Shown: positions 36,480 to 39,089 of the stretch, piece after piece
How the letters are laid out: the number at the start of each line of letters is the position of its first letter
Position numbering within the stretch: position 1 is the first letter of the stretch
Assembly: GCF_003019035.1 (NCBI RefSeq)
Contig: NZ_CP027447.1
DNA from: Escherichia coli
GTDB lineage: Bacteria > Pseudomonadota > Gammaproteobacteria > Enterobacterales > Enterobacteriaceae
DNA: 64,000 nt
Strand: one strand, 5' to 3'
Notes under the pieces: model-generated
Databases searched by the model: none
Seen by the model: the letters and a program-made list of their open reading frames with translations, nothing else
What the model was told of the DNA's origin: nothing
Position numbers and translations under genes: made by a program

Positions 36480-37457
36480 ATGCAGGTCGGACTTACTTCT
36501 TCGTCACTCACCACCGGCGGCGCGCATAGCGCTGCGGTATCGTCGTCAACCGTTGCGCCCACTCAGGCGGTGCGGCAAAAACTCCCGGCGACGGCGAGTG
36601 AATATCCGGCCTCGCCGCTGATTACCACTCGCCCGCAGCGTTACAGTGTGCAGCTTAACGATCAGCTCACCACGTTGCAGCAGGCGGATCACTATCTCGG
36701 GCAACTGGAACAGCAGTTGCTCGATTACCGTCACAGCCAGCGTAAGGGCGGGCAGGCGCAGAGTTCAGCGCTGATGCAGATGCTGGACAAACGCACCGCG
36801 CTTTCCGGCGGCGCGGTGGACCGCCAGTTGCAGCCAGTGTTGCAGGGGGAAGCGCGGGTGACTTTTCACTCGCCGGATCTGACGAATCTGGTACACAATC
36901 CCACGCCGGGAACGCGCATGTTCAGTGTCACTGGCGGGCGGCAGACCCAGCTTTCGGCGGTGATGCTGTCTGAGGATGACAGCGCCGCGCAGTATCAGAC
37001 GCGGCTGACCAACGCTCTGCGCCGCGTGGGTGTGCAACTGCATCAGCAAGCGGACGGCATCAGCTTCTCCACCACTGAAAAACAGTGGCCCCATATCGAG
37101 CGCACCTTAAGCGTGCGCACCGATGGCGATAAGTCGGCGTTTATGCCGCTGAAAACCTTTGCCGAACCGTCACAGGCGGACCGCTTAGCGCAAAGCCTGC
37201 AACAAGGCGGGGCGGGAATTTCTCAAATGCTGGAAAACATTAATCAGCAGCGCGCGCAAATGGCGGTGCAGCAGGAAAAAGCGCGGCAGTTGATCGACGG
37301 CATGTCCCGCTTCCCGCAAACGGAAAGCGCCGTGCAGGCGTCGGAAAATCTCGGCGGCGTGCTGGATAGCGCCAATCATAACTATCAAGTTTTATTGCAG
37401 GCGGTGAACGGTCAGGCACGGATTTCCAGCCAGACGGTGAGGAGTTTATTGGGGTAG
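36480..37457 (+). CDS. lafW: Hypothetical Flag-2 protein (325 aa), no recognisable family
   Basis: Ser/Thr/Gln-rich ORF in the position given as lafW in the Flag-2 nomenclature as I recall it. Confidence 0.6.
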   Translation: MQVGLTSSSLTTGGAHSAAVSSSTVAPTQAVRQKLPATASEYPASPLITTRPQRYSVQLNDQLTTLQQADHYLGQLEQQLLDYRHSQRKGGQAQSSALMQMLDKRTALSGGAVDRQLQPVLQGEARVTFHSPDLTNLVHNPTPGTRMFSVTGGRQTQLSAVMLSEDDSAAQYQTRLTNALRRVGVQLHQQADGISFSTTEKQWPHIERTLSVRTDGDKSAFMPLKTFAEPSQADRLAQSLQQGGAGISQMLENINQQRAQMAVQQEKARQLIDGMSRFPQTESAVQASENLGGVLDSANHNYQVLLQAVNGQARISSQTVRSLLG

Positions 37458-37547
37458 TGTTATTGAAAATCAATCAAATGAGGCTGTTGTAAAAAATCAT
37501 TTCAGTGCAGAATATGCTATAACTCTACGGGTTAAAAAAGGAATGAA

Positions 37548-37691
37548 ATGACCACTCTCAAGCAACTGATGGATAAGCAAAGCCCTGAAAGTCGTAGGCG
37601 AATAATAAAAAAAGCAGAACGAATCCGGCAAACTATCATTAATAAAAAGCTAGAGTTACCAATAACTAAAACTATCAGCAATTCCGATTGA
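37548..37691 (+). CDS. Possible small ORF (47 aa, basic)
   Basis: ATG with AAGGA RBS 5 nt upstream; MTTLKQLMDKQSPESRRRIIKKAERIRQ...; AT-rich with rare codons, so may not be translated. Confidence 0.25.
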   Translation: MTTLKQLMDKQSPESRRRIIKKAERIRQTIINKKLELPITKTISNSD

Positions 37692-37710
37692 TTTCATTCG
37701 GGATTTTCGT

Positions 37711-37746
37711 TGGCCGGATAAGACGCGTTTAGCGTCGCATCCGGCA
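37711..37746. repeat. REP element
   Basis: GGCCGGATAAGACGCGTTTAGCGTCGCATCCGGCAT. Confidence 0.8.
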
Positions 37747-37760
37747 TATATTGGCACTCG

Positions 37761-38603
37761 TCAGCATTTCTGCACAGTATTTAACAACTTCTCTAAATTC
37801 TGATACATCGCGCGATTAATATCGCTGTTCTGCCAGCCTTCCACATTAAAAGTTAATTGCCAGCTACCATTGCACTGGTTGCGCAGAACAATATCACTTT
37901 CCAGTCGGTTACGAACATATTTATAATAAGTTGTCATTGTCATATTATGCGCTGACAATAAATTATCGAGTTTGTCTTTTCCTGGTTCGAGGGTTTGTGA
38001 CAGTAACGGTACGGAATTATTTTCCTTTCCAGAACTAAGATGAAATATTTTTATTCTTGGACTGTTAATTGACTCTTTTACCAGTTGCGGGGCGTCAGGT
38101 GTACTTTTCAAGTGTGAATACCCCACGGTCGAGCCAATAAATATAACAGCCGCGGTCAACGCTAACCCCATCAGTCCTTTATGTTTTTTTCTAACTGGTA
38201 CAGGCGGTGTTGTCGAAGATATCTCTTCTGACACAGTTTCCTGTACCTGGTCGGTAATCATCAGCTTTTCCGCAGGCGATAACTCCGGCAAAGACACATA
38301 CTCTTTATTGCACAAGTAACCTTTCTTCGGAATTGTTTTAATAATGTTCTGTTGTTTGCCATCATCGTCGATAGCAACGCGTAACGCATGGATCGCCGTC
38401 GGCAGGCTGTTACCGCCGACTATGCGGTTCTTCCATACTTCGGCACATAAATAAGATCGCGATAAAACCACATCGGCATTTTTTGCTAATGTTTCCAGCA
38501 AAATAAAATGGTATTCGCCGAGACGACGTGTTTCACCCGTTTCGCAATGTATTAAGGCATTAAGCGACGGGTCCATCCGCCAGTTGTTGATAATAATACT
38601 CAT
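37761..38603 (-). CDS. lafZ: ToxR/CadC-like membrane-anchored transcriptional regulator (N-terminal winged-helix domain, one TM helix, periplasmic C-terminal domain)
   Basis: Winged-helix core ...LSRSYLCAEVWKNRIVGGNSLPTAIHALRVAID...; hydrophobic segment GLMGLALTAAVIFIGSTVGY; gene is markedly AT-rich. Confidence 0.75.
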   Translation of the reverse strand: MSIIINNWRMDPSLNALIHCETGETRRLGEYHFILLETLAKNADVVLSRSYLCAEVWKNRIVGGNSLPTAIHALRVAIDDDGKQQNIIKTIPKKGYLCNKEYVSLPELSPAEKLMITDQVQETVSEEISSTTPPVPVRKKHKGLMGLALTAAVIFIGSTVGYSHLKSTPDAPQLVKESINSPRIKIFHLSSGKENNSVPLLSQTLEPGKDKLDNLLSAHNMTMTTYYKYVRNRLESDIVLRNQCNGSWQLTFNVEGWQNSDINRAMYQNLEKLLNTVQKC

Positions 38604-39089
38604 AGTTGAGTTTACCTTAGCAAGGGATAAATGTTTCCTGATAGTGCTTTGCATAAAGCACAGTCTTATACGTCCCTGAGAAGATGATTTTTCTGCGTGA
38701 TAATTAATATTTTATGGTAATAGGATTATTCTTAATCACTATATGGCGTGGAAATGTAACGAAATGACAGGACAGGTACAATAGCCAAATGTGTACTATT
38801 TGCAACGCAATGTAAATTTTGGCATCAGTACATTGAGAACAAAACGCGATAATTGATGACAATCTTAACTATATCAAGCATTTGATAAAGACATATTTTG
38901 ATACCTGGCCATGTGGCAGATATTGCTAATAATCTTTTTATCTGAATTTAAACTCTGCTTTTTTTTAGCTAAAAGTGGCATCGGATAATACGTGGCGAAA
39001 AAATTTTAACGGCGATTTTAAGTTTGCTCCTGAGGTGTCGTTTTTACAGGGTATCGAAACGAAAACGATTAATCCCAAGGAGCAGTATC

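What the first reader, a model, noticed from the sequence alone, without database searches (positions are those of the whole stretch)
37548..37691. Possible 47-codon basic small protein between lafW and lafZ
An ATG with a well-spaced AAGGA RBS opens a 47-codon frame that ends just before a REP element. The peptide is Lys/Arg-rich. Rare codons and AT-richness argue against translation; it may be a gene remnant.
Basis: seen in the sequence. Interest (0 to 1): 0.25.

Follow-up and report, generated by a model that had tools for sequence, protein, structure and literature searches.

The report
Leftover stub of an antitoxin gene
The 47-codon frame is real, but it is the decayed front end of a toxin-antitoxin gene pair that sits intact at the same spot in other E. 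coli strains, so it is most likely an ordinary gene remnant and not a new small protein.

Summary
The ORF exists exactly as described: 37548-37691 (+), ATG, AAGGA 5 nt upstream, 47 codons, pI 10.7, 8 rare codons, 37% GC, ending 21 nt before a REP hairpin.

It is not a chance frame. Codons 1-35 match a profile of 22 intact HigA-like HTH antitoxins (E 2e-11), and this is the only such hit in the 64-kb window.

In E. coli 042 and 71 other complete genomes, an intact Gp49/RelE-ParE toxin (113 aa) plus HTH antitoxin (99 aa) lies at this same site between lafW and lafZ. This is the published VR2 cargo hotspot of Flag-2. The window's RBS and ATG are the old toxin-stop/antitoxin-start junction (83.6% DNA identity).

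The remnant has no toxin gene and no HTH domain. NCBI's PGAP already annotates the first 30 codons as an incomplete pseudogene.

Only 46 of about 1,275 Flag-2-positive complete genomes carry the stub. About 90% appear to have a 58-bp gap instead.

The frame is open in 20 of 21 alleles; one has a nonsense codon. One oddity remains: 10 of 20 variants are synonymous in this frame, against 2-5 in the other frames (P about 0.005-0.03). That signal comes from one branch only.

Verdict: a known, ordinary pseudogene with a small unresolved hint of constraint.

The parts
36480..37457 (+). lafW, last gene of the lfgK-lfgL-lafW run. Its stop codon is TAG, as in alleles with the intact TA pair; 'empty' alleles use TAA.
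   Evidence: ORF. 94-99% aa identity to the gene annotated between flgL and the TA pair or lafZ in E. coli genomes. Junction comparison.
37458..37547 (+). 90-nt AT-rich spacer of unknown origin. It is part of the roughly 243-bp segment that is present only in remnant-bearing alleles.
   Evidence: Alignment with an empty allele. No detectable similarity to the toxin gene or to TA promoter regions by profile HMM or short-word blastn.
37538..37591 (+). Stretch with DNA-level homology to the toxin-stop/RBS/antitoxin-start junction of the intact TA operon. It includes the AAGGA RBS (37538-37542) and the ATG (37548).
   Evidence: 83.6% identity to 72 E. coli genomes across the annotated junction between the RelE/ParE toxin and the HTH protein. 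Pairwise local alignment. 28 nt at 92.9% identity.
37548..37691 (+). The 47-codon ORF, a truncated antitoxin pseudogene. Codons 1-35 (37548-37652) are homologous to the pre-HTH, toxin-binding N-terminal part of HigA-like antitoxins, possibly up to codon 42-44. The last 5-12 codons have no detectable homology.
   Evidence: ORF. (blastp 25/44 identical, E 1e-12). (HMM residues 1-35, 30.3 bits, E 2e-11). (only hit in the window). (PGAP pseudogene over codons 1-30).
37713..37745 (.). REP (repetitive extragenic palindrome) hairpin between the convergent lafW-side and lafZ transcription units. It is present in both remnant and empty alleles and absent from the intact-TA allele.
37761..38654 (-). lafZ, a winged-HTH transmembrane-type regulator convergent with the ORF.
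   Evidence: PGAP product names. Synteny with 042.

Best explanation
The ORF is a non-functional pseudogene stub. Shown: a type II toxin-antitoxin operon, with a Gp49/HigB-like RelE-ParE toxin upstream and a HigA-like Xre/HTH_3 antitoxin downstream, occupies the lafW-lafZ gap in some E. coli strains. This gap is the known cargo-integration hotspot VR2 of the Flag-2 lateral-flagella locus. In the window's lineage the toxin gene is gone entirely. The antitoxin gene retains only its ribosome-binding site, its start codon and roughly its first 35-44 codons. That is the part which, in the solved S. pneumoniae HigBA complex, contacts the toxin; the whole DNA-binding HTH domain is missing. Inferred: the 'well-spaced RBS' is simply the inherited intercistronic junction of the operon. 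The basic, AT-rich, rare-codon character is most simply explained by A/T-biased decay of a helix that was originally Ala/Val/Glu-rich, although a more divergent parent gene would look similar. Toxin loss probably came first, which would make the antitoxin dispensable. This is consistent with orphan antitoxins and 5'-deleted toxins seen in other genera. The stub has no promoter-like site of its own and no terminator-like site was found between it and lafW, so any transcription would be read-through from lafW that ends at or is stabilised by the REP hairpin. Some incidental translation is possible but has no assigned role.
For: An intact toxin (113 aa, Pfam Gp49 PF05973, E 1e-20) and antitoxin (99 aa, HTH_3 at residues 32-83) lie between lafW and lafZ in 118UI and 042 and in 72 genomes in all. 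The ORF is homologous to the antitoxin N-terminus: blastp E 1e-12; profile of 22 antitoxins from 10+ genera, E 2e-11; unique hit in the window. There is DNA homology across the toxin-stop/antitoxin-start junction. Remnant and intact alleles share the left junction TAG-GGTTATTG, while empty alleles differ. The ORF itself gives no HTH or other Pfam/NCBIfam hit. No toxin remnant is detectable. PGAP marks it 'incomplete; missing C-terminus'. There is no + strand promoter-like or terminator-like site. One allele has R18*. Diversity in the ORF (pi 0.047) equals that of the flanking spacers (0.036, 0.042), and segregating sites by codon position are 7:4:8, not significant. Residues 1-19 fall within family variation, but residues 20-35 carry changes seen in no intact member, including loss of the invariant L32 (sequences). 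GC of codons 1-35 is 0.37-0.40, against 0.43-0.52 in intact genes. Other genera show a decay series: toxin reduced to its last 28-36 aa (L022, L024), orphan antitoxins (L019, L025) and frameshifted antitoxins (L026, L027). VR2 is a cargo hotspot (PMC6993521). The N-terminal beta1-alpha1-alpha2 of HigA is the HigB interface in PDB 6AF4 (PMC7984235). 6AF3/6AF4 is the third-closest solved relative.
Against: The frame, the ATG and the RBS are intact in 20 of 21 alleles, even though the flanking genes have diverged by up to about 6%. Ten of 20 variants are synonymous in the ORF frame, against a neutral expectation of 22-27% (P 0.005-0.026) and against 2-5 of 20 in the other five frames. Between the D8 group and the other haplotypes dN/dS is about 0.1. 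These observations hint at some constraint on the peptide. The signal rests on 8 substitutions on one branch; the remaining branches give 4 syn of 12 (P 0.26-0.43 for an excess of synonymous changes), and pairwise dN/dS among the non-D8 haplotypes is about 0.8-1.1. Whether the remnant decayed in situ from an ancestral VR2 module, or arrived separately from the 042-type module, is not resolved. The two differ far more in the antitoxin start than lafW and lafZ do between the same strains.
Confidence: 0.85

Rival explanations
1. The stub is a translated, selectively maintained small protein. It would be an orphan toxin-binding peptide, the N-terminal beta1-alpha1-alpha2 module of a HigA-like antitoxin without its DNA-binding domain. 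It could neutralise related Gp49/HigB-like toxins arriving on plasmids or by recombination (anti-addiction), or have acquired another role.
For: An intact RBS, ATG and open frame occur in 20 of 21 alleles. There is an excess of synonymous variants in this frame only: 10 of 20 against 2-5 of 20, P 0.005-0.03. dN/dS is about 0.1 on the D8-group branch. The retained segment corresponds to the toxin-binding part of HigA in PDB 6AF4. Residues 1-19 are entirely within the variation of functional family members. Related TA modules at 68% nt identity occur on E. coli plasmids.
Against: No cognate or closely related toxin gene was found in the window. Blastn with the full TA module matched remnant-bearing genomes only at the 55-nt junction, in the rows listed. 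There is no promoter of its own, and codon usage is poor. Residues 20-35 carry non-family substitutions including the invariant L32. A nonsense allele exists. Branches other than the D8-group branch look neutral: 4 syn of 12, and pairwise dN/dS among the non-D8 haplotypes is about 0.8-1.1. About 90% of Flag-2 loci appear to lack the segment altogether. The selection signal rests on about 8 substitutions and was found post hoc.
Confidence: 0.1
2. The remnant did not decay in place from the same insertion as the 042-type module. On this view a different, more divergent member of the same TA family, or only a fragment of it, was integrated independently at the VR2 hotspot and then truncated.
For: Codons 1-35 differ from the 042/118UI antitoxin at dN 0.34-0.36 with dS saturated, while lafW and lafZ are about 95% identical between the same strains. 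The intact allele is at least 99.7% identical in all 35 full-length (intact-allele) hits listed (72 genomes fall in the >=99% band), suggesting a recent spread. The intact allele lacks the REP and has a different hairpin. VR2 is a recurrent integration site.
Against: Both alleles share the same left junction immediately after a TAG stop of lafW (TAG-GGTTATTG), which empty alleles lack. The remnant occurs on deep-branching lafW/lafZ haplotypes and has diverged about as much as its flanks (pi 0.047), as expected for an old resident.
Confidence: 0.3
3. The ORF is a chance open frame in AT-rich intergenic DNA with a fortuitous Shine-Dalgarno-like motif.
For: The frame is short and lies in AT-rich sequence. 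Single-sequence searches of Pfam, NCBIfam, PDB and 1.84 billion representative proteins found nothing significant other than copies of itself.
Against: There is specific homology to an antitoxin family at protein and DNA level, located at the same genomic site as the intact gene.
Confidence: 0.01

Closest known systems
The TA pair between lafW and lafZ of E. coli 042 (EC042_RS01480, RelE/ParE-family Gp49 toxin WP_000263532.1; EC042_RS01485, HTH protein WP_000212551.1)
   Same: Same chromosomal site and same left junction. The RBS/ATG junction is homologous. The first 35-44 codons are homologous (57% identity over 44 aa).
   Different: The window has no toxin gene and no HTH domain (residues 32-83 of the 99-aa protein). 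The retained part is much more A/T-rich and basic. A REP hairpin follows it instead of the 042-type hairpin.
HigA-type antitoxins with a pre-HTH toxin-binding N-terminus: S. pneumoniae HigA (PDB 6AF3/6AF4), M. tuberculosis HigA2 (7EWC) and HigA3 (6LTY)
   Same: These are the nearest solved relatives of the intact parent protein (E 2e-8 to 5e-6). The stub corresponds to the N-terminal helices that form the HigB interface in 6AF4 (PMC7984235).
   Different: The stub itself gives no significant PDB match. Its correspondence to the toxin-binding region is inferred through the intact E. coli homologue, not shown directly.
RefSeq/PGAP pseudogene 'helix-turn-helix domain-containing protein; incomplete; missing C-terminus' (e.g. 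HPE50_RS27795 in SCU-172, ACSAYX_RS01470 in D8)
   Same: It is the same feature, annotated over codons 1-30 of the same frame in orthologous loci.
   Different: PGAP stops at codon 30 and does not link it to the 042 TA pair. Several genomes carry the sequence with no annotation.
VR2, the lafW-lafZ variable region of enterobacterial flag-2 loci (De Maayer et al. 2020, PMC6993521)
   Same: Same location. Small size and a G+C content below that of the locus fit the published description (0.4-5.5 kb, mean deviation -4.7%).
   Different: The paper describes VR2 cargo as mostly hypothetical proteins. A term search of its main text found no occurrence of 'antitoxin' or 'HigA'; its supplementary tables were not checked.

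Membership tests
HigA-like (Xre/HTH_3) type II antitoxin paired with a Gp49/HigB-like toxin | N-terminal pre-HTH segment homologous to the family | tested here: met
   A profile of 22 intact antitoxins matches ORF residues 1-35: 30.3 bits, E 2e-11. Blastp to the 118UI antitoxin gives 25/44 identical, E 1e-12.
HigA-like (Xre/HTH_3) type II antitoxin paired with a Gp49/HigB-like toxin | Helix-turn-helix DNA-binding domain (Pfam HTH_3; residues 32-83 of the intact protein) | tested here: not met
   The intact protein hits HTH_3 at E 1e-12. The 47-aa ORF has no HTH hit, and no other frame of 37430-37770 matches the rest of the profile.
HigA-like (Xre/HTH_3) type II antitoxin paired with a Gp49/HigB-like toxin | Cognate toxin gene immediately upstream in the same operon | tested here: not met
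   The toxin profile and tblastn find nothing in the 90-nt spacer or anywhere else in the window.
HigA-like (Xre/HTH_3) type II antitoxin paired with a Gp49/HigB-like toxin | Orthologous position to an intact module | tested here: met
   The intact pair lies between lafW and lafZ in 118UI and 042 and is present in 72 genomes in all. The left junction is shared.
Bona fide small-protein gene | Start codon with a correctly spaced Shine-Dalgarno motif and an open frame | tested here: met
   AAGGA at 37538-37542, ATG at 37548, 47 codons.
Bona fide small-protein gene | Frame conserved across related loci | tested here: met
   The frame is open and of identical length in 20 of 21 alleles, with no indels inside it. 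One allele (AF3) has CGA>TGA at codon 18. However, the whole segment is absent from about 90% of Flag-2 loci.
Bona fide small-protein gene | Purifying selection on the encoded peptide | tested here: inconclusive
   Variants split 10 synonymous, 9 non-synonymous, 1 stop. P is 0.005-0.026 against the neutral expectation. The ORF frame has the most synonymous variants of the six frames. But the codon-position pattern of 7:4:8 is not significant and pi equals that of the flanking spacers. The signal comes from one branch, and pairwise dN/dS among the non-D8 haplotypes is about 0.8-1.1.
Bona fide small-protein gene | Evidence of transcription and translation | not testable with these tools
   No + strand promoter-like site was found. 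No expression data are available here.
E. coli REP element (downstream neighbour) | Imperfect GC-rich palindrome of about 35 nt matching the REP consensus and repeated in the genome | tested here: met
   Hairpin at 37713-37745, -25.1 kcal/mol, z -3.1. Partial match to the REP-derived naRNA4 model. Matches in over 1,100 E. coli genomes, including K-12-derived DH5alpha, where the match is probably outside the Flag-2 locus (inferred from prior knowledge; not checked here).

The most novel reading that the evidence does not exclude
The stub is not dead. It would be a translated 47-aa orphan 'toxin-binding head' of a HigA-like antitoxin, stripped of its DNA-binding domain and kept under weak purifying selection in a minority of E. 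coli lineages. Its role could be an anti-addiction peptide that blunts related Gp49/HigB-like toxins entering on plasmids or by allelic replacement at VR2.
Probability: 0.1. Interest if true: 0.45.

Novelty: already known. Interest (0 to 1): 0.15.

Why it matters
It matters little for biology at large. The result closes a candidate 'new small protein' by showing that it is the front end of a decayed antitoxin gene, and RefSeq already flags it as a pseudogene.

Three modest points remain useful:
- It documents three allelic states at the Flag-2 VR2 hotspot in E. coli: an intact HigBA-like pair, a stub, and a 58-bp empty gap.
- It illustrates the expected order of TA decay, with the toxin lost first and the antitoxin eroding afterwards.
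- It warns that a good RBS plus an open frame next to a REP can be pure inheritance from an operon junction.

The one open thread is the excess of synonymous variation in the stub's frame. If that held up in a large sample, the stub would become a candidate natural 'DNA-binding-less' antitoxin fragment.

Tried and rejected
1. Single-sequence searches with the 47-aa peptide found only copies of itself or noise: Pfam, NCBIfam, PDB, the 5.8-billion word-indexed protein set and phmmer against 1.84 billion representatives. A 30-bit N-terminal match cannot reach significance in libraries of that size, so these nulls say nothing about homology.

2. tblastn against plasmids and phages found only one E. 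coli record, and it carries the same locus.

3. I suspected that the 90-nt spacer in the frame ending ...AEYAITLRVKKGMK*, whose TGA overlaps the ATG, was the C-terminal remnant of the toxin (compare ...SEYRKHLKK*). Neither a toxin profile nor short-word blastn supports this, so I rejected it.

4. I looked for homology between the last 12 codons or the 3' spacer and the antitoxin 3' end or its downstream region. None was found. I therefore cannot say whether the loss was an internal deletion or a 3' truncation.

5. An Rfam scan of 37300-37900 gave only a sub-threshold REP-derived hit. There is no sRNA or riboswitch reading.

6. The promoter and terminator scan found nothing on the + strand.

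7. The metagenome scan returned four contigs, all with E. coli-type alleles. No new lineages were added.

8. Ren et al. 2005 (PMC545627) is not held. I could not check how the two CDSs between lafW and lafZ were named originally.

Full report
**Observation.** The mechanical ORF list contains 37548..37691 (+): ATG start, 47 aa, MTTLKQLMDKQSPESRRRIIKKAERIRQTIINKKLELPITKTISNSD. AAGGA lies at 37538-37542, 5 nt before the ATG. The peptide has 12 Lys/Arg against 5 Asp/Glu and a pI of 10.7. Eight of its 47 codons are rare in E. coli: AGG, CGA x2, CGG, ATA x3 and CTA. GC is 37% for the ORF and 34% for the surrounding 243 bp, against 60% for lafW. The stop codon is followed after 21 nt by a REP hairpin at 37713-37745. 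That hairpin folds at -25.1 kcal/mol with z -3.1 and gives a partial match to the REP-derived Rfam model naRNA4. The flanking genes are lafW (36480-37457, +) and lafZ (37761-38654, -). The proBA genes in the window are 100% identical to E. coli strains, so the window is E. coli.

**What it is.** The peptude alone gave nothing in Pfam, NCBIfam, PDB or two very large protein libraries. The decisive lead came from comparing the DNA with 5,426 complete E. coli genomes.

- About 1,275 genomes carry the lafW-lafZ region.
- Only 46 carry the roughly 243-bp segment that holds the ORF.
- In those genomes NCBI's PGAP annotates codons 1-30 as a pseudogene: 'helix-turn-helix domain-containing protein; incomplete; missing C-terminus'.
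- A sensitive blastn showed that window 37538-37591 is 83.6% identical to the junction between a 'type II toxin-antitoxin system RelE/ParE family toxin' and a 'helix-turn-helix domain-containing protein' in 72 other genomes.
- In strain 118UI, and in the Flag-2 type strain 042, that intact gene pair lies exactly between lafW and lafZ.

The toxin is 113 aa and belongs to Pfam Gp49/PF05973 (E 1e-20). The antitoxin is 99 aa, with an HTH_3 domain at residues 32-83. The window ORF aligns with the antitoxin N-terminus at 25/44 identities, E 1e-12.

A scan of one genome per species found 22 full-length antitoxins in Enterobacter, Citrobacter, Kluyvera, Raoultella, Lelliottia, Leclercia and others. 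None of these lies in a Flag-2 context. A profile built from them matches ORF residues 1-35 at 30.3 bits, E 2e-11. It hits nothing else in a six-frame translation of the whole window (E 4.7e-9). No trace of the toxin gene or the HTH domain remains.

The ORF is therefore the 5' stub of the antitoxin gene. Its 'well-spaced RBS' is the inherited intercistronic junction...AAAAAGTAAGGAACGATAATGGCT... in the intact operon, against ...AAAAAAGGAATGAAATGACC... in the window.

**Context.** The lafW-lafZ gap is VR2, one of two cargo-integration hotspots of enterobacterial flag-2 loci. It is described as small, of deviant G+C, and mostly encoding hypothetical proteins (De Maayer et al. 2020, PMC6993521). 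E. coli shows three states there:

- *Intact TA pair:* 72 genomes; at least 99.7% identical in all 35 full-length (intact-allele) hits listed (all 72 fall in the >=99% band); no REP, and a different hairpin after the antitoxin.
- *Stub plus REP:* 46 genomes.
- *Empty:* a 58-bp gap holding only the REP. This was verified directly in four strains and inferred for the remaining roughly 1,150 from match coordinates.

Stub and intact alleles share a TAG stop for lafW followed by GGTTATTG. Empty alleles have TAA followed by TTATCGGT. Stub-bearing alleles sit on deep and diverse lafW/lafZ haplotypes, and the stub has diverged about as much as its flanks: pi is 0.047, against 0.036 and 0.042 in the adjacent spacers. 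It is therefore an old resident rather than a recent insertion.

The direction of change is not settled, because my sample of empty alleles is small and I had no outgroup. It is also unclear whether the 042-type module is the same insertion or a later replacement. The two antitoxin starts differ far more (dN about 0.35, dS saturated) than lafW and lafZ do.

**How it most likely works.** It most likely does nothing. Toxin loss removes the need for the antitoxin, which then erodes. Other genera show the intermediate stages:

- toxins cut down to their last 28-36 aa next to intact antitoxins (L022, L024);
- orphan antitoxins (L019, L025);
- frameshifted antitoxins (L026, L027).

In the stub, residues 1-19 are within the variation of functional family members. 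Residues 20-35 carry substitutions found in no intact member, including the invariant L32. GC has fallen from 0.43-0.52 to 0.37-0.40. This would account for the Lys/Arg/Ile-rich, rare-codon look, although descent from a more divergent parent gene would give a similar picture.

No + strand promoter-like or terminator-like site was found. Any transcript would therefore be lafW read-through ending at the REP; this step is inferred.

**The open thread.** Across 17 E. coli alleles and 4 metagenome contigs, the ATG, the RBS and the 47-codon length are unchanged. The single exception is a nonsense codon, R18*, in isolate AF3.

- Of 20 variants, 10 are synonymous, 9 are non-synonymous and 1 is a stop.
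- The neutral expectation for synonymous changes is 22-27%, giving P = 0.005-0.026.
- The same variants scored in the other five frames give only 2-5 synonymous.
- The signal comes from the single branch that separates the D8 group from the rest, with 6 synonymous and 2 non-synonymous changes. The remaining branches give 4 synonymous of 12 (P 0.26-0.43 for an excess of synonymous changes), and pairwise dN/dS among the non-D8 haplotypes is about 0.8-1.1.
- The codon-position pattern of 7:4:8 is not significant.

The retained segment corresponds, through the intact homologue, to the beta1-alpha1-alpha2 region that forms the HigB-binding interface of S. pneumoniae HigA. This is PDB 6AF4, the third-nearest solved relative (PMC7984235). 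A residual toxin-binding role is therefore conceivable. Against it, no close toxin homologue was detected in the window, and in the rows listed the TA-module query matched remnant-bearing genomes only at the 55-nt junction. I put this reading at about 10%.

**Comparison with the known, and novelty.** The feature works like, and derives from, a HigA-type antitoxin gene. It fails two defining features of a functional member: it has no HTH domain and no partner toxin. It is a pseudogene fragment that RefSeq already annotates as such, located in a published variable region. A term search of the main text of the one Flag-2 paper I read found no occurrence of 'antitoxin' or 'HigA', so I did not find the link to the 042 TA pair described there. 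That link is an ordinary result. Novelty: already known. Interest: low.

Noticed in passing
L004:3833-3862 (E. coli 118UI; the same arrangement in 042, L045): The intact-TA allele has no REP between the antitoxin and lafZ. It carries a different perfect 12-bp inverted repeat instead (CCGGATTAGATA-AAACGG-TATCTAATCCGG). The three VR2 states therefore differ in their 3' hairpin as well.
   Followed up: partly
L022, L024, L019, L025, L026, L027 (Enterobacter mori, Silvania confinis, Leclercia spp., Kluyvera genomosp. 3): Homologous TA modules in other genera show various stages of decay. Toxins are reduced to their last 28-36 aa beside intact antitoxins, some antitoxins have no detectable toxin, and some antitoxins are frameshifted. 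None of the 23 non-Escherichia loci lies in a Flag-2 context within +/-4 kb.
   Followed up: partly
L046:690-6900 (metagenome contig OGXH01005523.1): Directly after the REP, this contig continues into unrelated genes (no similarity to lafZ; family and taxon not checked) instead of lafZ. It looks like a chimeric assembly joined at the REP.
   Followed up: partly
window 36480-37454 vs 37764-38654: Third-codon-position diversity among 16 alleles is very high in lafW (pi 0.14) and lower in lafZ (0.078). Both exceed the intergenic diversity (0.036-0.047). The lafW and lafZ trees are not congruent, which suggests recombination within the locus.
   Followed up: partly
window 37543-37551: A minimal ORF, ATG-AAA-TGA, overlaps the ORF's start codon (AATGAAATGACC). 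It lies out of frame and shares the same AAGGA motif.
   Followed up: no
window 37631-37602 (- strand): The only promoter-like site in 37300-37900 is on the minus strand inside the ORF (TTGCCG-18-TATTAT, 9 of 12 matches). One site was found against 1.4 expected by chance, so it is probably meaningless.
   Followed up: no
NZ_CP104632.1 (100,861-bp record labelled plasmid, E. coli AHM21C2872I), about 47-49 kb: A record typed as a non-mobilizable plasmid carries lafW, the stub and lafZ. It is probably a chromosomal fragment deposited as a plasmid.
   Followed up: no
L001-L045 annotations of the lafW orthologue: PGAP names the same LafW protein family inconsistently across genomes: 'hypothetical protein', 'flagellar hook-associated protein' or 'flagellar biosynthesis protein FlhF'. 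Several Flag-2 loci carry inactivating lesions: lafW and lafZ are frameshifted in 32F4, flgL has an internal stop in FDAARGOS_943, and flgC is frameshifted in 042.
   Followed up: no
E. coli records NZ_CP101202.1, NZ_CP072981.1 (plasmids) and NZ_CP027323.1: A paralogous toxin-antitoxin pair, about 68% identical at nucleotide level to the VR2 module, occurs in seven E. coli records, most of them plasmids.
   Followed up: no
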